From the sequence record NC_001730.1: 6,089 nt of DNA, one strand, 5' to 3'. Shown here piece after piece: positions 1-6,089 of the stretch. Source of the DNA: Escherichia phage phiK. The position numbers were made by a program, and so were the translations under genes. Positions within the stretch are counted from its first letter, which is position 1, and every line of letters starts with the position of its first letter. The notes under the pieces were generated by a model. The model worked only from the letters and a program-made list of their open reading frames with translations. It searched no databases and was not told where the DNA came from.

Positions 1-3
1 TTG

Positions 4-31
4 TTGACATTCCCCAATTCCTTATTAGACT
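4..31 (+). promoter_or_regulatory. Candidate sigma70-type promoter upstream of ORF1 (TTGACA N16 TAGACT)
   Basis: Perfect -35 hexamer TTGACA at 4-9, 16-nt spacer, -10-like TAGACT at 26-31 (4/6 to TATAAT). Lies about 30 nt upstream of the AGGAG/ATG of the 64..432 ORF. Motif match only. Confidence 0.25.
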
Positions 32-63
32 CTTGCTTCAACGAAACGAATCAGGAGTCTTTT

Positions 64-432
64 ATGAAGCCCGCTCACTGTCTTACTCATCCCGTACTTG
101 GTTCATGGTTTTTTAAGTGTCCCGTTTATATCCGTTATGAGCACCTTCATCACGGTCGTCTTATCAAGGTTCGCGCTGTTCGTGATTTGTCCCCGCGTCA
201 GCAGCTTATTGCTAACCCTAAAAATTGCTTTGACGTTGTTATTGCTGAGATTGATGTTACTTATGGCTCCATTACTTGGTTTGACTATGAGCATGAGGAG
301 TATGATGAGTTTGAGCCTGATGTTATAAATGGCCTCGTTAACTATATTGATATTCCTCACGTCATTCGTTCTGAGGAAGACCCTACTGTTTCTGTTGATG
401 ATATGGATTGGCTTTATGAAATTGCGGAGTAA
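64..432 (+). CDS. Hypothetical protein (about 122 aa), basic His/Cys-containing N-terminal half and strongly acidic C-terminal half; first ORF of the H-A spacer module
   Basis: ATG 64 preceded by AGGAG at 53-57 (6-nt spacing); stop TAA 430-432. Third codon positions are about 55-60% T by hand count, the same bias as canonical microvirus genes. No similarity to proteins A-H that I can recognise. Confidence 0.5.
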   Translation: MKPAHCLTHPVLGSWFFKCPVYIRYEHLHHGRLIKVRAVRDLSPRQQLIANPKNCFDVVIAEIDVTYGSITWFDYEHEEYDEFEPDVINGLVNYIDIPHVIRSEEDPTVSVDDMDWLYEIAE

Positions 433-435
433 ATT

Positions 436-525
436 ATGGAGACTGTTATCGGAAAATTTATTGCTCTGGCTGTTGTTGCTTTTATGCTGTATGGAATTAC
501 CCGCTTAATTTTGAGGTTCCCGTGA
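436..525 (+). CDS. Hypothetical 29-aa hydrophobic peptide (METVIGKFIALAVVAFMLYGITRLILRFP), predicted single transmembrane helix
   Basis: ATG 436 lies 3 nt after the ORF1 stop, with GGAG at 426-429 (6-nt spacing); stop TGA 523-525. Hydrophobic core FIALAVVAFMLYGI flanked by K7 and R23/R27. Same frame as ORF1. Too short for codon statistics to be decisive. Confidence 0.35.
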   Translation: METVIGKFIALAVVAFMLYGITRLILRFP

Positions 526-734
526 AGTATTTTAGTTTGGTTGATGAACATTATGCTTATTGCCCTGATACGAGGATTTTGCACATTACTCGCAGTCGTG
601 TTTCTGACCCTCGCTACGAGCGTTGCTTTCTTACTGATGAGGAGCATTTTGCGCTATTGGATTGGTTGAAAAACCGTCCAACTTGCGTTAATTCTTGGCA
701 ATCTTCTGAAATACCCTCTATATTGCCCTCATAG
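522..734 (+). CDS. Hypothetical protein (about 70 aa), GTG-initiated, translationally coupled to the upstream peptide ORF
   Basis: GTG 522-524 overlaps the TGA stop of the 29-aa ORF (GTGA); GAGG at 513-516 (5-nt spacing); stop TAG 732-734. No in-frame ATG exists, so the start must be non-ATG if the ORF is real. Third-position T about 50% by hand count. Confidence 0.4.
   Translation: MKYFSLVDEHYAYCPDTRILHITRSRVSDPRYERCFLTDEEHFALLDWLKNRPTCVNSWQSSEIPSILPS
695..724 (+). promoter_or_regulatory. Candidate gene A promoter (PA-like): TTGGCA N18 TATATT
   Basis: -35-like TTGGCA at 695-700 and -10-like TATATT at 719-724, 18-nt spacer. The predicted start site falls inside the downstream hairpin. phiX174 has its PA promoter in the equivalent H-A spacer. 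Motif match only. Confidence 0.3.
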
Positions 735-754
735 TTTCACTACGAGGGCTTTTT
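725..754 (+). terminator. Hairpin plus T5 run, intrinsic-terminator-like, at the end of the spacer module immediately upstream of gene A
   Basis: GCCCTC (725-730) pairs with GAGGGC (744-749); an inner 3-bp helix TAG(732-734)/CTA(740-742) leaves a 5-nt loop; followed by TTTTT 750-754. The 3' arm contains the GAGGG Shine-Dalgarno of gene A. Confidence 0.45.
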
Positions 755-757
755 CGC

Positions 758-2242
758 ATGGCTACCGAAATCTTTTCTGATGTTGTTAAATCTGTTTGGT
801 CGCACGCTACGGCTAAGCACGCCCATCTTCGTATGGCTGTTCAGGTTGATAATCGTAGTCGCCTTCTTTCTGATTTGGTTTACCAGTTGGAAAAACGCCT
901 CTCCGAAGAGACTCATCTGGATGATGAGACTTATGCCCTTTATGAATCTCAGACTGGCCTTTTGGAAGACCATATGGCACTGGTTCGGAAGTGTGCAGCC
1001 CAACTTGATAATAGTAACACTATAGACCACCGCACCCCGTTGGACCCTGAATGTGTTTTTCTTTTTGAGATGATTTGTCCAGGTGTCCGCTATGGTAAGA
1101 CGCTTAATTCGCTTTGGAGTAAGTATGCTGCCCAGTGGCCTGAGAAATTGATTCGTCAGGAGCTCGACATGGTCAAGCCTTTATCCTTTAAGGATGAGGT
1201 TGCCAAGTACATGGAAAAAATGCAGGAAAAAACACGCAAAAACCGCATGACTCAGAAAGTTATCAATGAGATGCGTATTGCTCACCAGAAAGGCTGGTTC
1301 TTTGTGTTTGACACGTTGACCCTTGCCGATGACCGTTTGCAGGCATTCAATGAAAACCCCAATGCTCTTCGTGATTATTTTAGGACTGTTGGTCGAGCTG
1401 TTCTGCGCGCTGAAGGTCGTTCGGTTAAGGATTCCTACAACGACTGCTATCGCTATCTTTGTGTGCCGGAGTTTGGAGGTCAGCACGGTCGTCTTCATTG
1501 GCACGTTGTGCATATGGTGCGGACTCTTCCTTTGGGAAGTCATGACCCTAACTTCGGTCGCCCGGTACGTAATTATCGCCAGATTAACTCGTTCCGTGGC
1601 ATGTGGCCCTATGGCTTTACGCAACCGATAGCCGTTCGTTATCAACATGACGCTTATTCTCGCAAAGGTTGGTTATGGCCTGTTGACAAATCAGGAAAAG
1701 CAATGCAGAGTAAGCCGTATCAGGCGGTCGCATGGTATGTGACCAAGTATGTAGCTAAGCAATCTGACCAGCGTCAGAAGGCTATTACCGAGAGACAAAA
1801 GAAATGCAAGAATCCATTAATGGCAATCTGTCTGAAGAAAGAATTTCGGGTGCGCAGCAGCCGGAAGCTTGGAATGGAGCTCCCGTCAATGGCTCACCTG
1901 AGCAACAAAGTGCTTCTGGAGCTGAGTCGAATCAGCTTCGATTCCAGTCCTCTTTATCAGATAGTGAAAGAGAACGCCAAAAAGCAACTGACCTTGAACA
2001 TCGGCGCGCTGCCTTTGCACGTCATTTTGGATGTGCGCCCGGAAGTGAGAAGCATGTTGAAAGCTATTCGTCGTTTGATGAAAAAGACACCAGAGTTCAA
2101 CTGGCAGAGTTCTATCGCTTCAATGACGGTCACCTTAAAAAATGGGGATATTTCTGATGAAGCACGTCAATACATTATTGATGCAGGAATTACGCCTACT
2201 GATTTGCGAGCTAAAGCGACTCAAACTTTCGGCGGTAAGTGA
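758..2242 (+). CDS. A: Gene A protein, rolling-circle replication initiator (HUH endonuclease), 494 aa
   Basis: ATG 758, stop TGA 2240-2242. Translation aligns with phiX174 A protein from ...DNSNTIDHR... onward: WFFVFDTLTLADDRL, HUH motif GRLHWHVVHM, paired catalytic tyrosines in YVTKYVAK, C-terminal ...ASMT...GGK. N-terminal 80 residues are divergent, as is usual for this family. Confidence 0.95.
   Translation: MATEIFSDVVKSVWSHATAKHAHLRMAVQVDNRSRLLSDLVYQLEKRLSEETHLDDETYALYESQTGLLEDHMALVRKCAAQLDNSNTIDHRTPLDPECVFLFEMICPGVRYGKTLNSLWSKYAAQWPEKLIRQELDMVKPLSFKDEVAKYMEKMQEKTRKNRMTQKVINEMRIAHQKGWFFVFDTLTLADDRLQAFNENPNALRDYFRTVGRAVLRAEGRSVKDSYNDCYRYLCVPEFGGQHGRLHWHVVHMVRTLPLGSHDPNFGRPVRNYRQINSFRGMWPYGFTQPIAVRYQHDAYSRKGWLWPVDKSGKAMQSKPYQAVAWYVTKYVAKQSDQRQKAITERQKKCKNPLMAICLKKEFRVRSSRKLGMELPSMAHLSNKVLLELSRISFDSSPLYQIVKENAKKQLTLNIGALPLHVILDVRPEVRSMLKAIRRLMKKTPEFNWQSSIASMTVTLKNGDISDEARQYIIDAGITPTDLRAKATQTFGGK
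1001..1030 (+). other. Viral (+) strand origin of rolling-circle replication (A-protein recognition and nick site)
   Basis: CAACTTGATAATAGTAACACTATAGACCAC matches the phiX174 origin 30-mer as I recall it (CAACTTGATATTAATAACACTATAGACCAC) at 28/30, both differences in the AT-rich spacer. Lies inside gene A at the homologous codon position (LDNSNTIDH). Expected nick between G1007 and A1008. Confidence 0.85.
1211..2242 (+). CDS. A*: A* protein, in-frame internal restart within gene A (candidate)
   Basis: In-frame ATGs at 1211 and 1220 (MEKMQEKTRKNRM...) align with the phiX174 A* start (MKSRRGFAIQRLMNAMRQAHADGWF versus MQEKTRKNRMTQKVINEMRIAHQKGWF); GGATGAGG-like SD at about 1193-1199. Inferred by homology; which ATG is used is unknown. 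Confidence 0.35.
   Translation: MEKMQEKTRKNRMTQKVINEMRIAHQKGWFFVFDTLTLADDRLQAFNENPNALRDYFRTVGRAVLRAEGRSVKDSYNDCYRYLCVPEFGGQHGRLHWHVVHMVRTLPLGSHDPNFGRPVRNYRQINSFRGMWPYGFTQPIAVRYQHDAYSRKGWLWPVDKSGKAMQSKPYQAVAWYVTKYVAKQSDQRQKAITERQKKCKNPLMAICLKKEFRVRSSRKLGMELPSMAHLSNKVLLELSRISFDSSPLYQIVKENAKKQLTLNIGALPLHVILDVRPEVRSMLKAIRRLMKKTPEFNWQSSIASMTVTLKNGDISDEARQYIIDAGITPTDLRAKATQTFGGK
1804..2157 (+). CDS. B: Gene B protein, internal scaffolding protein, 117 aa, overprinted within gene A in a different frame
   Basis: ATG 1804, stop TGA 2155-2157. C-terminus ...RVQLAEFYRFNDGHLKKWGYF matches phiX174 B ...RIQPAEFYRFHDAEVNTFGYF; acidic, low-complexity N-terminal region typical of B. Confidence 0.9.
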   Translation: MQESINGNLSEERISGAQQPEAWNGAPVNGSPEQQSASGAESNQLRFQSSLSDSERERQKATDLEHRRAAFARHFGCAPGSEKHVESYSSFDEKDTRVQLAEFYRFNDGHLKKWGYF

Positions 2243-2955: not shown

Positions 2956-3030
2956 ATGAAAAAAGCACGTCGTTCTCCTAGTCGTCGTAAAGGTGCTCGC
3001 CTCTGGTATGTAGGCGGTTCTCAGTTTTAA
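2956..3030 (+). CDS. J: Gene J protein, small basic DNA-binding/packaging protein, 24 aa
   Basis: ATG 2956, stop TAA 3028-3030. MKKARRSPSRRKGARLWYVGGSQF shares the C-terminal KGARLWYVGG.QF with phiX174 J. The short 24-aa form is characteristic of the G4/alpha3 group. Absent from the ORF track only because of length. Confidence 0.9.
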   Translation: MKKARRSPSRRKGARLWYVGGSQF

Positions 3031-3032
3031 TT

Positions 3033-3062
3033 ATGGGCCTTCGGGCCCCTTAAGGATTATTA
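3033..3062 (+). promoter_or_regulatory. J-F intercistronic hairpin (GGGCC-TTCG-GGCCC) plus AAGGA ribosome-binding site for F
   Basis: GGGCC 3035-3039 pairs with GGCCC 3044-3048 across a TTCG tetraloop; AAGGA 3052-3056 sits 6 nt before the F ATG. phiX174 has a comparable GC hairpin in its J-F spacer (TJ terminator / mRNA-stabilising element). Confidence 0.5.
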
Positions 3063-4358
3063 ATGTCTAATGTACAAACTTCAGCTGAACGTGAAATTGT
3101 TGACCTCTCTCATCTTGCTTTTGACTGTGGCATGATTGGTCGCTTGAAAACTGTTTCATGGACTCCTGTTATCGCTGGCGATTCCTTTGAGCTTGATGCT
3201 GTTGGTGCTTTGCGTCTTTCTCCTCTGCGTCGTGGTTTAGCCATTGATTCTAAGGTTGACTTTTTCACTTTCTATATTCCGCATCGTCATGTTTATGGTG
3301 ATCAGTGGATTCAATTTATGCGTGATGGTGTTGATGCTTCGCCGCTTCCTTCCGTTACTACTACTAAGTATCCGGATGATGCTGGTTATGTTGGTACTAT
3401 TGTTCCTAAGAGCAACCGTATTCCTAAGTTTTTGCATCAGTCTTATCTGAATATTTATAATAACTATTTCCGTGCGCCGTGGATGCCTGAGCGTACTGAA
3501 GCTAATCCTTCAAACTTAGATCGTGATGATTCTCGTTATGGATTCCGTTGTTGCCATCTTAAAACTATTTGGTCTGCTCCTCTTCCTCCGGAAACTAAGC
3601 TCGCTGAGCAAATGGGCATTGAAAGCAATTCCATTGATATTATGGGTTTGCAGGCCGCTTATGCGCAGCTTCACACTGAGCAGGAGCGTACTTATTTTAT
3701 GCAGCGTTACCGTGATGTTATCTCCAGCTTTGGCGGTTCAACCTCCTATGATGCCGATAACCGACCGTTGCTTGTTATGCATACCGATTTTTGGGCTTCC
3801 GGTTACGACGTTGACGGTACCGACCAATCTTCCCTTGGACAGTTTTCGGGGCGAGTTCAACAGACGTTTAAACACTCAGTGCCGCGATTCTTCGTGCCTG
3901 AGCATGGTGTCATGATGACTTTGATGCTGGTTCGCTTCCCGCCTATCAGTCCTTTGGAGCATCATTATCTTGTTGGTCGTAATAATTTGACTTATACCGA
4001 CCTTGCTGGTGACCCGGCTTTGATTGGTAATTTGCCGCCGCGTGAGATTTCTTATCAGGACCTTTTCCGTGATGGTCGCCCGGGCATTAAGATTAAGGTT
4101 GCCGAGTCTATCTGGTATCGTACTCATCCGGATTATGTTAACTACAAGTATCAGTTACTTGAGGGTTTCCCGTTCCTTGATGATGCGCCCGGTACGACTA
4201 GTGGTGATGACCTTCAGAAGGCTATTCTCATTGACCATAATGACTATAATGCCTGTTTCCAGTCTCAGCAGTTGCTTCAGTGGAATAATCAGGCTCGTTA
4301 TAATGTTAATGTTTATCGCCATATTCCTACTGTTCGTGATTCTATTATGACCTCTTAA
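3063..4358 (+). CDS. F: Gene F protein, major capsid protein, 431 aa
   Basis: ATG 3063, stop TAA 4356-4358. Extensive identity to phiX174 F: MSN.QT.AER, TPVIAGDSFE.DAVGALRLSPLRRGLAIDS, YGFRCCHLK, IDIMGLQAAYA, SGYDVDGTDQ.SLGQFSGRVQQT, LPPREIS, QLLQWN, TRDSIMTS. Confidence 0.97.
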   Translation: MSNVQTSAEREIVDLSHLAFDCGMIGRLKTVSWTPVIAGDSFELDAVGALRLSPLRRGLAIDSKVDFFTFYIPHRHVYGDQWIQFMRDGVDASPLPSVTTTKYPDDAGYVGTIVPKSNRIPKFLHQSYLNIYNNYFRAPWMPERTEANPSNLDRDDSRYGFRCCHLKTIWSAPLPPETKLAEQMGIESNSIDIMGLQAAYAQLHTEQERTYFMQRYRDVISSFGGSTSYDADNRPLLVMHTDFWASGYDVDGTDQSSLGQFSGRVQQTFKHSVPRFFVPEHGVMMTLMLVRFPPISPLEHHYLVGRNNLTYTDLAGDPALIGNLPPREISYQDLFRDGRPGIKIKVAESIWYRTHPDYVNYKYQLLEGFPFLDDAPGTTSGDDLQKAILIDHNDYNACFQSQQLLQWNNQARYNVNVYRHIPTVRDSIMTS

Positions 4359-4361
4359 TTC

Positions 4362-4391
4362 ATGGGCCTTCGGGCCCATTAAGGATTTTTT
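4362..4391 (+). promoter_or_regulatory. F-G intercistronic hairpin (ATGGGCC-TTCG-GGCCCAT) plus AAGGA ribosome-binding site and T6 run
   Basis: 7-bp stem 4362-4368/4373-4379 with TTCG tetraloop; AAGGA 4381-4385; TTTTTT 4386-4391 directly before the G ATG. 27/30 identical to the J-F module at 3033-3062. Confidence 0.5.
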
Positions 4392-4955
4392 ATGTATCAA
4401 ATTTTTGTTACTAAGCATGATACCGCCATTCAGACCTCCCGTTTTTCTGTTACTGGCAGTATCACTCCTGTTGCGCCTACTGGTAATATCCCTGTTATCA
4501 ATACTGGTAATATTACTGCTGAGCATGCTGTTGTTAGTCTTTATGCTAATTTGACTGCTGGCACCTCTTCTGATGGTTCTTTTATTGTTGCTATGAAGGT
4601 TGACACTTCTCCTGCTGACCCCAATTGCGTTATCTCTGCTGGTGTTAACCTTAGTTTTGCTGGTACCTCATACCCGATTGTTGGCATTGTTCGTTTTGAG
4701 TCTGCTTCTGACCAGCCCACTTCTATTGCTGGTAGCCAGATTGAGCATTACCCAATTGAAATGTCTGTAGGTTCTGGTGGTGTTTGTTCTGCTCGCGATT
4801 GCGTTACTGTTGATATTCATCCTCGCGCTTTTGGCAATAATGTTTTTGTTGGCGTGATTTGTTCTAGTGCTAAATGGACCTCCGGTCGTGTGCTTGGTAC
4901 CATCGCTACGACTCAGGTTATTCGTGAGTATCAGGTCCTTCAGCCGCTTAAATAA
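4392..4955 (+). CDS. G: Gene G protein, major spike protein, 187 aa
   Basis: ATG 4392, stop TAA 4953-4955. Matches phiX174 G in conserved blocks: VRFES, KDCVT.D..PR..GNNV.VG and C-terminal L.QVI.E...LQPLK. Confidence 0.95.
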
Positions 4956-5090
4956 AAGGCCGCCGCACTCCTGGTTATGTGTCTGCCCAGTGTAGGGCGG
5001 ACCGAGCCATACGGAGATACCCGATAAACTAGGAACGTGGAAGGCGTTAGCCGCCTTCCCTCCTGCTAAGCCCAAAAAGGAGCTTACAAT
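4956..5090 (+). other. Structured GC-rich G-H intergenic region; candidate complementary (-) strand origin recognised by DnaG primase
   Basis: 135-nt non-coding spacer (I recall about 11 nt in phiX174) with two stable hairpins: 4981-5002 (GTCTGCCC/GGGCGGAC, 6-nt loop, one G-U pair) and 5039-5059 (GGAAGGCG/CGCCTTCC, 5-nt loop). Ends with the H SD AGGAG at 5078-5082. G4-type phages carry a primase-dependent origin in a hairpin-rich spacer between late genes. Assignment here is by analogy. Confidence 0.4.
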
Positions 5091-6089
5091 ATGCTTGGTA
5101 GTATCATTGGAGGCATTGGTTCATCGCTGCTCGGAGGAATTGCTTCCGGCGGTATCTCCAGCCTCCTTAATAAAATGTTCAGTAAAATGCCAGAACATGC
5201 CGCCTCTTCTGCTGGCCTTACTAATGGTCAAGGTACTATTGGTATGGATACTGATGCTGGTATTCAGTCTGCTATTCAGGGTTCTAATGTTCCTCCTGCT
5301 GGTCAATTGCCCGCTTCTAATACTTCTGGTGTTATGGCTGATGCTGGTAATATGATTCGTAATGCTGGTAGAGCTTTGCTTGATGGTACGATTCAGGCTG
5401 GCTCTGATAAGGTTAAAGAGGCTCTTATTGATAAGTTGGTTGGAGGTAATGATGCTAAAGACCGAGGAAAGGCAACCCGTGATTACTTGGCAGCGGCTTT
5501 CCCTGAGCTCAACCCGTGGGAGCGTGCTGGAGCTGGTGCTTCCACTGCCGGGTTAGAGTCTTCTGCTCAGAATCAACAAAAAGAGATGCTTAAAATGCAA
5601 CTGGATAACCAGAAGGATATTGCTAAGATGCAGATGAATAACAATTTGCAGATTGCTGGAATTCAGTCCGCTACATCTCGTCAAAATACGAAGGATTCTG
5701 TTTATGCCCAGAATGAAATGCTTCAGTATAATCAACGTGAGTCGCAGGCACGCGTTGCGTCTATCCTCGCCAACACTGACCTTACGACTAAGCAGGCCAC
5801 CCATGAAATTATGAGGATGGCTCTTACTCGTGCTCAGGAAACTGGTCAGCATTTGACTAACTCTCAGATTATGGCTTTGGAGAAAAAGGTTTATGCAGAA
5901 ATTGGAAAAATTCATCAAGATACTCAAAATTCTCGTTATGGTAGCTCTCAAGTTACTGCCGCAGCGAAAGACGTTACGAATATGATTACTGACGCCTCTT
6001 CAGGTCTTGCTGATTGGGCCTCCCAGCAGTGGGATTCGTTCTTTAAGGATGGCAAGTCTGATGGCATTCCTCTCAATACTAGAAAATAA
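5091..6089 (+). CDS. H: Gene H protein, minor spike / DNA pilot protein, 332 aa
   Basis: ATG 5091 (AGGAG 5078-5082), stop TAA 6087-6089. Matches phiX174 H: glycine-rich N-terminus, SAIQGSNVP, TRDYLAAAFPELN.WERAGA, KMQLDNQK, IAGIQSATSRQNTKD.VYAQNEML, ARVASI, QNSRYGSS, KDGK.DGI. Confidence 0.95.
   Translation: MLGSIIGGIGSSLLGGIASGGISSLLNKMFSKMPEHAASSAGLTNGQGTIGMDTDAGIQSAIQGSNVPPAGQLPASNTSGVMADAGNMIRNAGRALLDGTIQAGSDKVKEALIDKLVGGNDAKDRGKATRDYLAAAFPELNPWERAGAGASTAGLESSAQNQQKEMLKMQLDNQKDIAKMQMNNNLQIAGIQSATSRQNTKDSVYAQNEMLQYNQRESQARVASILANTDLTTKQATHEIMRMALTRAQETGQHLTNSQIMALEKKVYAEIGKIHQDTQNSRYGSSQVTAAAKDVTNMITDASSGLADWASQQWDSFFKDGKSDGIPLNTRK

What the first reader, a model, noticed from the sequence alone, without database searches (positions are those of the whole stretch)
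3028..3062. Near-identical 30-nt hairpin/RBS cassette precedes both F and G (copy 1, J-F)
ATGGGCCTTCGGGCCCCTTAAGGATTATTA (3033-3062) and ATGGGCCTTCGGGCCCATTAAGGATTTTTT (4362-4391) are 27/30 identical. Each begins immediately after a TAATT stop context and ends at the next ATG, and each has a GC stem with a TTCG tetraloop followed by AAGGA. Such identity in two non-coding spacers of a fast-evolving ssDNA phage points to strong selection or gene conversion. The hairpins probably act as mRNA 3'-stabilisers or partial terminators that set the stoichiometry of J, F and G transcripts.
Basis: seen in the sequence. Interest (0 to 1): 0.45.

Follow-up and report, generated by a model that had tools for sequence, protein, structure and literature searches.

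The report
Duplicated terminator-like hairpin plus ribosome site
Two almost identical 30-base spacers before the coat gene F and spike gene G of this small phiX174-like phage each hold a very stable RNA hairpin and the next gene's ribosome-binding site; the first is the counterpart of the known leaky terminator and mRNA stabiliser TJ of phiX174, so the feature is real but ordinary.

Summary
The repeat is real. Bases 3033-3062 and 4362-4391 match at 27 of 30 positions, the best 30-mer repeat in the genome; no shuffle reached 27.

The window is a complete Alphatrevirus genome. Its G protein is identical to that of phage phiK.

Each spacer runs: stop codon, a 5-bp GC stem capped by C(UUCG)G, 2-3 bases, TAAGGA, 6 bases, ATG.

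Every alphatrevirus examined has this cassette at both J-F and F-G. The J-F hairpin is positionally and sequence-orthologous to phiX174 TJ, an experimentally shown weak rho-independent terminator and mRNA stabiliser.

Compensatory changes support the helix: 92% of cells are paired and no shuffle matched. Between clades the spacers are 75-83% identical, against 53% at third codon positions of F.

Gene conversion is not supported. Same-genome copies are no more alike than cross-clade copies, and all four combinations of stem variants occur.

The U-tracts are poor, so termination should be leaky. The function is inferred by orthology and was not tested in this phage.

Verdict: a known kind of element, low novelty.

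The parts
3028..3030 (+). Stop codon (TAA) of gene J (J = 2956-3030, 24 aa)
   Evidence: Translation. Same coordinates as J in the St-1 record.
3035..3048 (+). J-F hairpin: GGGCC-TTCG-GGCCC, a 5-bp GC stem with a C(UUCG)G tetraloop. Ortholog of phiX174 TJ.
   Evidence: Sequence. RNA fold -10.4 kcal/mol, 96% of the ensemble. Covariation. Orthology to phiX174 GGGGCTTCGGCCCC.
3051..3056 (+). Shine-Dalgarno site TAAGGA of gene F, 6 nt before the ATG
   Evidence: Sequence. TAAGGA is conserved before F in nearly all the alphatrevirus genomes compared; two third-clade contigs have TAGGAG instead.
3063..4358 (+). Gene F (major capsid protein, 431 aa). Its stop TAA is at 4356-4358.
   Evidence: ORF. 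Pfam Phage_F, E = 1.2e-167.
4362..4379 (+). F-G hairpin: core GGGCC-TTCG-GGCCC at 4364-4377, extended to 7 bp by AU/AU. A paralogous copy of the J-F hairpin.
   Evidence: Sequence. RNA fold -12.6 kcal/mol, 0 of 200 shuffles as stable. Present in every alphatrevirus examined.
4380..4385 (+). Shine-Dalgarno site TAAGGA of gene G, 6 nt before the ATG
   Evidence: Sequence. Conservation.
4392..4955 (+). Gene G (major spike protein, 187 aa)
   Evidence: ORF. Pfam Phage_G. 100% identical to the phiK G protein (P0010).

Best explanation
The two elements are paralogous copies of one compact intercistronic module of phiX174-like phages (Bullavirinae). The module consists of a stop codon, a short GC hairpin capped by the very stable C(UUCG)G RNA tetraloop, a short U/A stretch, the TAAGGA ribosome-binding site of the next gene, a 6-nt AU spacer and the ATG.

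All genes are transcribed rightwards on the + strand. In the mRNA the hairpin most likely acts as phiX174 TJ does. It would stop a minority of RNA polymerases, and it would cap the 3' end of the resulting transcripts against 3'-exonucleases. Nested mRNAs ending after J and after F would then accumulate, and mRNA dosage would fall stepwise from D/J to F to G to H. Polymerases that read through deliver the TAAGGA site, from which F or G is translated.

The F-G copy is specific to the alpha3/phiK genus. There the F-G spacer has been reduced to this cassette alone, and the G4-type complementary-strand origin lies between G and H instead.

The 27/30 identity reflects common origin plus tight constraint on almost every base (stem, loop, SD, spacing). 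It does not reflect ongoing gene conversion.

What is shown: the repeat, its conservation, the helix covariation, the orthology to TJ, purifying selection, and the absence of general homogenisation. What is inferred: termination and mRNA stabilisation in this particular phage.
For: - The repeat is real and beyond chance.
- The window is a complete alphatrevirus, 94% identical to St-1. Its G protein is identical to that of phiK.
- Every alphatrevirus genome or contig examined has exactly these two [GC]n-TTCG-[GC]n hairpins, at J-F and F-G wherever the region was available.
- The phiX174, SP14, PJNS002 and FL76 J-F spacers carry GGGGCTTCGGCCCC, identical to the WA13-clade hairpin. NC10 has GGGGGC-TACG-GCCCCC and G4 has GTGGGAC-CGCG-GTCCCAC at the same place.
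- Covariation over 28 distinct hairpins: 92.3% of cells paired against 75.5% in shuffles (0/500), covariation score 0.394 against 0.122 (0/500), and the register is sharply best at slide 0. The pair next to the closing pair is G-C in 14, C-G in 13 and A-U in 1. The C-G closing pair is invariant.
- Between-clade identity is 0.75 for the J-F spacer and 0.83 for the F-G spacer, against 0.53 at third codon positions of F.
- Literature on phiX174: TJ, TF, TG and TH lie in the J-F, F-G, G-H and H-A spacers. TJ, TF and TG each block only 20-40% of transcription (bioRxiv 10.1101/2020.03.05.979765). Transcripts ending at TJ are the most stable, and disrupting the TJ structure speeds mRNA decay (PMC3335065, citing Hayashi, Hayashi and Muller 1983). 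PMC3606162 agrees.
- The G-H spacer aligns along its whole length with the G4 F-G origin region. This explains why F-G can be minimal here.
Against: - No transcript mapping exists for this phage in anything I could read, so the function rests on orthology.
- Neither copy has a canonical U-tract. The 8 nt after the 5-bp stem are CUUAAGGA and AUUAAGGA, 2 U each. The consensus terminator scan did not call them.
- A rough d'Aubenton-Carafa-type score, with the formula recalled from memory, is about -30 for both copies. It is -10 to -22 for phiX174 TJ and +30 for a canonical control terminator. Termination may therefore be weaker here than in phiX174, and in this phage the hairpins might act mainly as stabilisers or pause sites.
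- Covariation cannot by itself separate an RNA hairpin from a hairpin in the single-stranded viral DNA.
- One metagenomic relative (L042) has a UUUG loop.
Confidence: 0.72

Rival explanations
1. Concerted evolution. The two copies are kept alike by intragenomic gene conversion or template switching between the hairpins during rolling-circle replication, rather than by independent selection.
For: - In most genomes the stem variant is the same at both loci. The pair next to the closing pair is G-C at both in WA13-type phages and C-G at both in the alpha3/phiK clade and the NC28 group.
- Three metagenomic genomes (L018, L019, L028) have an identical 25-nt run, CATGGGCCTTCGGGCCCTTTAAGGA, at both loci.
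- The window has the highest same-genome identity of all genomes compared, 0.88.
Against: - Over whole cassettes, same-genome paralogs (0.77-0.78) are no more alike than cross-clade paralogs (0.71-0.78) or cross-clade orthologs (0.73-0.76).
- Flanks are locus-specific, not genome-specific.
- All four J-F/F-G stem combinations exist: G-C/G-C, C-G/C-G, G-C/C-G (MG945254, L036) and C-G/G-C (L045).
- Where NC28-type phages match, the J-F spacer was imported as a patch of about 45 nt or less from an alpha3-like phage. That is inter-phage recombination, not intragenomic conversion.
Confidence: 0.12
2. DNA-level element. The hairpins function in the single-stranded viral DNA, for example in packaging or condensation with protein J, as a replication pause, or as a secondary cleavage or binding site for protein A/A*, rather than in mRNA.
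For: - The same stems fold in ssDNA, at -5.8 and -8.6 kcal/mol in the + strand.
- Covariation is equally compatible with DNA pairing.
Against: - The invariant C-G closing pair and the near-invariant UUCG loop (UACG in NC10) form the UNCG motif. Its exceptional stability is a property of RNA, not of the DNA analogue (established knowledge: Tuerk et al. 1988; James and Tinoco 1993; from memory).
- Both copies sit exactly between a stop codon and the next SD, which is a transcript-level logic.
- The replication signals are elsewhere: the viral-strand origin at 1001-1030 and a G4-type complementary-strand origin in G-H.
- The DNA folds of the copy-1 region are not significant against shuffles (z = -1.4).
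Confidence: 0.08
3. Primarily translational device. The hairpin insulates or regulates the adjacent ribosome-binding site. For example, the F-G stem could extend to pair the last F codons with the G Shine-Dalgarno site, so that G translation is coupled to termination of F.
For: - The hairpin ends 2-3 nt before TAAGGA in both copies.
- In partition-function folds the first three SD bases of G pair with the UCUU of the last F codon and stop region, with probability 0.31-0.74 in all seven alpha3-clade and WA13-clade genomes tested; in L036 it was only about 0.15. The MFE of the F-G region shows the same extension.
Against: - Shuffling the 60 nt upstream gives as much SD pairing in 22-46% of shuffles for F-G. 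The J-F copy shows less pairing than shuffles. The prediction is therefore not above background.
- All pairs in the proposed extension are invariant or change on one side only, so there is no covariation support.
- It does not explain conservation of the same hairpin in phiX174 TJ, where mRNA stabilisation was shown.
Confidence: 0.12

Closest known systems
phiX174 TJ (J-F intercistronic rho-independent terminator and mRNA-stabilising hairpin; Hayashi, Hayashi and Muller 1983; Logel and Jaschke 2020)
   Same: Same position (J stop to F start). Same architecture: GC stem, TTCG loop, short U/A stretch, purine-rich SD, ATG. The sequence is nearly the same: GGGGCTTCGGCCCC in phiX174 against GGGCCTTCGGGCCC here, which is one compensated pair swap. 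It is identical in WA13-clade alphatreviruses.
   Different: The U-tract is poorer here: CUUAAGGA against UUACUUGA in phiX174. No transcript data exist for this phage. This genus carries a second copy at F-G.
phiX174 TF (F-G terminator)
   Same: Same functional position, after the capsid gene F and before G. In phiX174 it is a weak terminator that blocks 20-40% of transcription.
   Different: There is no sequence relationship. The phiX174 F-G spacer is 110 nt, with a different hairpin scored as weak (-2.6, against -9.5 for TJ) and a primosome site. Here F-G is 33 nt and holds a TJ-type hairpin.
C(UUCG)G hairpins in phage T4 intercistronic regions (Tuerk et al. 1988; recalled from memory, not read here)
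   Same: An extra-stable UNCG tetraloop hairpin placed between cistrons of a phage polycistronic mRNA.
   Different: An unrelated phage with no sequence homology beyond the motif. This is a resemblance in design only.
Canonical intrinsic (rho-independent) terminators of E. coli
   Same: A GC-rich hairpin of 5-7 bp with a 4-nt loop.
   Different: It lacks the run of U directly after the stem. The consensus scan does not detect it. At best it would be a very leaky terminator.

Membership tests
Bullavirinae J-F intercistronic hairpin (phiX174 TJ type) | Lies between the stop codon of J and the start codon of F on the coding strand | tested here: met
   J stop at 3028-3030, hairpin at 3035-3048, F ATG at 3063.
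Bullavirinae J-F intercistronic hairpin (phiX174 TJ type) | GC-rich stem-loop whose pairing is conserved across the subfamily | tested here: met
   92.3% of cells paired, 0 of 500 shuffles as high, 4 of 6 pairs with changes on both sides. Hairpins occur at the same place in the phiX174, G4, NC10, FL76, SP14 and PJNS002 genomes.
Bullavirinae J-F intercistronic hairpin (phiX174 TJ type) | Sequence homology to the phiX174 TJ hairpin | tested here: met
   phiX174 has GGGGCTTCGGCCCC and the window has GGGCCTTCGGGCCC. WA13-clade genomes are identical to phiX174.
Bullavirinae J-F intercistronic hairpin (phiX174 TJ type) | Transcript 3' ends or partial termination at the site, and stabilisation of the upstream mRNA | not testable with these tools
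   Shown for phiX174 only (papers read). No RNA data for phiK or alpha3 could be found.
Canonical rho-independent terminator | GC-rich hairpin | tested here: met
   Hairpin free energy of -10.4 and -12.6 kcal/mol.
Canonical rho-independent terminator | U-rich tract immediately after the stem (at least 5 T in 8) | tested here: not met
   Only 2 T in the 8 nt after the 5-bp stem in both copies (3 of 8 after the 7-bp F-G stem). The sites are not called by the terminator scan. Tail scores are 1.1-1.2, against 4.7 for a control terminator.
phiX174 TF (F-G terminator) | Sequence homology to the phiX174 F-G spacer or hairpin | tested here: not met
   The phiX174 F-G spacer is 110 nt with an unrelated hairpin. 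The alphatrevirus F-G spacer is 26-49 nt in the genomes compared and resembles J-F instead.
UNCG-tetraloop RNA hairpin | UNCG loop closed by a C-G pair | tested here: met
   C(UUCG)G in both copies. The closing C-G pair is invariant in 28 of 28 hairpins. The loop is TTCG in 25, TACG in 1, CGCG in 1 and TTTG in 1.
Any curated Rfam family | Match to a covariance model | tested here: not met
   No match in the whole window at E <= 1.

The most novel reading that the evidence does not exclude
The roughly 35-nt stop-hairpin-SD spacers may behave as exchangeable regulatory modules in ssDNA phages. Under this reading the F-G cassette arose by duplication of the J-F (TJ) cassette when the complementary-strand origin came to lie in G-H. 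Since then the hairpins have been reshuffled, both by micro-recombination between phages (patches of about 45 nt or less, as in NC28-type genomes) and occasionally by copy-to-copy template switching within a genome. That would explain why stem variants usually, though not always, match at the two loci.
Probability: 0.2. Interest if true: 0.4.

Novelty: new member of a known kind. Interest (0 to 1): 0.2.

Why it matters
The result explains how this group of microviruses probably grades capsid (F), spike (G) and pilot (H) mRNA levels without any regulatory protein.

It also makes a testable prediction. Unlike phiX174, whose TF hairpin is weak, phiK/alpha3-type phages carry a TJ-strength hairpin after F as well. 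F-terminated transcripts should therefore be as stable as J-terminated ones.

For genome engineering of microviruses, the 33-nt cassette is a ready-made, compact insulator plus RBS part.

None of this changes the current understanding of these phages.

Tried and rejected
- **Chance repeat: rejected.** No shuffle reached 27/30 (0 of 60).
- **General concerted evolution or gene conversion: tested and not supported.** I compared same-genome paralogs with cross-clade paralogs and orthologs and catalogued stem-state combinations in 30 or so genomes and contigs.
- **SD sequestration and F-to-G translational coupling through an extended F-G helix.** It is predicted by folding but is not above an upstream-shuffle control.
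- **A d'Aubenton-Carafa-type terminator score.** The formula was recalled from memory, and my first control was mis-parsed. After the fix I use it only qualitatively.
- **Rfam scan: no family**.
- **Similarity of the cassette to the viral-strand origin.** The origin is a single site at 1001-1030. I did not find a convincing match in the spacers.
- **Papers not held.** Hayashi et al. 1983 (PMC255335) and Rokyta et al. 2006 could not be read. Searches for alpha3/phiK intercistronic literature found nothing usable. I could therefore not check whether the original alpha3/phiK genome papers already describe the duplicated hairpin.
- In one search the two 'hairpin' sub-ranges were set one base too far 3' (3036-3049 and 4365-4378). 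Only the whole-spacer figures from that call are used.

Full report
**What the window is.** The 6089-nt window is a complete genome of an alpha3-like microvirus (Microviridae, Bullavirinae, Alphatrevirus).
- It is 94% identical to phage St-1 and 90.5% identical to alpha3 over its full length.
- Its G protein is 100% identical to the database entry 'G [Escherichia phage phiK]', which comes from a 6089-nt record (P0010). The window is therefore phiK or something indistinguishable from it.
- Gene order on the + strand is A (758-2242), D (2502-2954), J (2956-3030), F (3063-4358), G (4392-4955) and H (5091-6089).

**The observation.** The two 30-mers are as quoted and match at 27 of 30 positions.
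- This is the best 30-mer direct repeat in the genome. In 60 dinucleotide-preserving shuffles the best match was 21-25 and never reached 27.
- The degenerate motif GGSCTTCGGSCCNNTTAAGGA, with up to three mismatches, occurs only at these two sites, with 0 expected.
- One detail is slightly off in the finding: copy 2 has an extra C between TAATT and ATGGG. With that 1-nt gap the similarity spans from the stop codon of the upstream gene into the start codon of the next, 37 of 41 columns.
- Each copy contains a 5-bp GC stem, GGGCC/GGCCC, closed on a TTCG loop (3035-3048; 4364-4377, extendable to 7 bp at 4362-4379). TAAGGA follows 2-3 nt later, then exactly 6 nt, then the ATG.
- As RNA the isolated hairpins fold at -10.4 and -12.6 kcal/mol and dominate the ensemble.

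**Distribution in relatives.** I extracted the J-F and F-G spacers from 14 database alphatreviruses, 4 further IMG/VR or metagenome genomes and 13 further Logan/ENA/NCBI contigs.
- Every one has a [GC]n-TTCG-[GC]n hairpin followed by (T)AAGGA or TAGGA at both J-F and F-G, wherever the region was present. No genome has a third copy.
- Outside the genus, the J-F spacer of phiX174, Salmonella phages SP14 and PJNS002, and the G4-like phage FL76 carries GGGGCTTCGGCCCC. This is identical to the WA13-clade alphatrevirus hairpin.
- NC10 has GGGGGC-TACG-GCCCCC and G4/ID8 have GTGGGAC-CGCG-GTCCCAC at the same place.
- The F-G spacers of phiX174-like and G4-like phages are instead about 100-140 nt long and unrelated. 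They hold the primosome site or the G4 complementary-strand origin.
- The J-F hairpin is therefore ancient and orthologous to phiX174 TJ. The F-G copy is a genus-specific paralog.
- In this window the 135-nt G-H spacer aligns end to end with the G4 F-G origin region. This fits an F-G spacer that has been reduced to the bare cassette.

**Evidence for selection on structure.** I analysed 28 distinct hairpin sequences aligned on the loop.
- For the 6-bp helix, 92.3% of cells are paired, against 75.5% in shuffles (0 of 500 reach it).
- The covariation score is 0.394, against 0.122 in shuffles (0 of 500).
- The true register is far better than any slid register.
- The pair next to the closing pair is G-C in 14, C-G in 13 and A-U in 1. 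The third pair flips in 3. The closing C-G pair is invariant (the smaller set agrees).
- Between the alpha3/phiK clade and the WA13 clade, the J-F and F-G spacers are 75% and 83% identical. Third codon positions of F are 53% identical. Both spacers are thus under purifying selection.
- The loop is TTCG in 25 of 28, with TACG, CGCG and TTTG once each. C(UNCG)G is the classic extra-stable RNA tetraloop (established knowledge). This favours an RNA-level role over a role in viral ssDNA, although covariation alone cannot separate the two.

**Most likely function.** The argument rests on what is known for phiX174.
- Four leaky rho-independent terminators, TJ, TF, TG and TH, lie in the J-F, F-G, G-H and H-A spacers. 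TJ, TF and TG each remove only 20-40% of the transcriptional current. Together they produce the graded D>F>G>H mRNA levels (bioRxiv 10.1101/2020.03.05.979765).
- Transcripts ending at TJ are the most stable, and disrupting the TJ structure accelerates their decay (PMC3335065, citing Hayashi, Hayashi and Muller 1983; also PMC3606162).
- The J-F hairpin here is the positional and sequence ortholog of TJ, and the F-G copy is nearly the same sequence. The best-supported mechanism is therefore a leaky terminator and 3' exonuclease barrier, followed by the ribosome-binding site of the next gene.
- This step is inferred, not shown.
- Neither copy has a real U-tract (CUUAAGGA and AUUAAGGA after the stem). 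The consensus scan does not call them. A rough terminator score puts them below phiX174 TJ and far below a canonical control.
- Relatives often have UUU(U)AAGGA instead. I therefore expect very leaky termination in this phage, with mRNA stabilisation possibly the larger effect.

**Selection or gene conversion?** The stem variant (G-C or C-G at the pair next to the closing pair) is usually the same at both loci of a genome. That looks like concerted evolution, but it does not hold up.
- Over whole cassettes, same-genome J-F/F-G identity (0.77-0.78) equals cross-clade paralog identity (0.71-0.78) and cross-clade ortholog identity (0.73-0.76). All cassettes sit at a similar distance from a common constrained consensus.
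- Flanks are locus-specific.
- With more genomes, all four combinations appear: G-C/G-C (WA13 group, L035, L038), C-G/C-G (alpha3/phiK clade, NC28 group), G-C/C-G (MG945254, L036/L037) and C-G/G-C (L045).
- In NC28-type phages the matching J-F spacer is an alpha3-like patch of about 45 nt or less, bounded by WA13-like J and F coding sequence. That is recombination between phages, not conversion within a genome.
- The window happens to have the highest same-genome identity of the set (0.88; range 0.69-0.88).

**Other rivals.**
- DNA-level role: not excluded but disfavoured. Both replication origins are elsewhere, the RNA-specific tetraloop motif is what is conserved, and the DNA fold of the copy-1 region is not significant.
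- Translational-coupling role through an extended F-G helix that pairs the end of F with the G Shine-Dalgarno site: predicted by folding but no better than upstream-shuffled controls.
- No Rfam family matches anywhere in the window.

**Verdict.** It amounts to recognising the TJ/TF-type intercistronic hairpins that are textbook features of phiX174-like phages.
- The only mildly new points are two. In the alpha3/phiK genus the F-G element is a near-duplicate of TJ rather than a TF-like weak hairpin. The roughly 35-nt spacers also appear to move between phages as small recombination patches.
- I could not read the original alpha3/phiK genome papers to see whether the duplication was already noted.
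- Interest is low.

Noticed in passing
window 4956-5090 (G-H spacer): The 135-nt spacer aligns along its whole length with the G4 F-G spacer that carries the primase-dependent complementary-strand origin (annotated RNA primer and rep_origin in the G4 record). In this genus a G4-type origin therefore appears to lie between G and H, while F-G is minimal.
   Followed up: partly
window 695-751: A promoter-like site, TTGGCA-18 nt-TATATT (695-724), is followed immediately by a hairpin plus T5 (CCCTCATAGTTTCACTACGAGGGCTTTTT, 725-751), just before the gene A ATG at 758. This is the same promoter/terminator overlap layout described for pA-TH of phiX174.
   Followed up: partly
L009 (NC28) about 3040-3090; also L043-L048 and L045: WA13-type genomes carry an alpha3-clade-type J-F spacer as a patch of about 45 nt or less, bounded by WA13-like J and F coding sequence. 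The spacer seems to be exchanged between phages as a small recombination module. L045 has this J-F type together with the WA13-type F-G stem.
   Followed up: partly
L035 1561-1598 and L038 2166-2203 (third clade; G about 55% identical to the window's): The F-G spacer is only 26 nt. The F stop codon TAA forms part of the 5' arm of the hairpin (TAAGGGC-TTCG-GCCCTT), and the Shine-Dalgarno site is TAGGA instead of TAAGGA. This is an even more compressed version of the cassette.
   Followed up: no
L042 about 835-870 (J-F spacer): This is the only hairpin seen with a TTTG loop instead of TTCG (GGGCC-TTTG-GGCCC). It could be a real variant or an assembly error in a single Logan contig.
   Followed up: no
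window 1-757 (H-A region): The roughly 750-nt region between H and A holds several ORFs, for example ORF 1-432, inside which an ATG at 64 gives the 122-aa product, and ORFs 329-508 and 522-734. Gene calls of about 122, 29-30 and 58 aa recur at the same place in related contigs. They have no Pfam hit, and the Lilleven record annotates them as hypothetical proteins.
   Followed up: no
window 1001-1030: The viral-strand replication origin 30-mer lies inside gene A, CAACTTGATAATAGTAACACTATAGACCAC, with 2 mismatches to the phiX174 origin.
   Followed up: yes
window 3048-3055: CCTTAAGG, which overlaps the F Shine-Dalgarno site, is an 8-nt perfect palindrome. The UUAA of the stop-codon context (3027-3030) is complementary to the UUAA at 3050-3053. 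No significance could be shown.
   Followed up: partly
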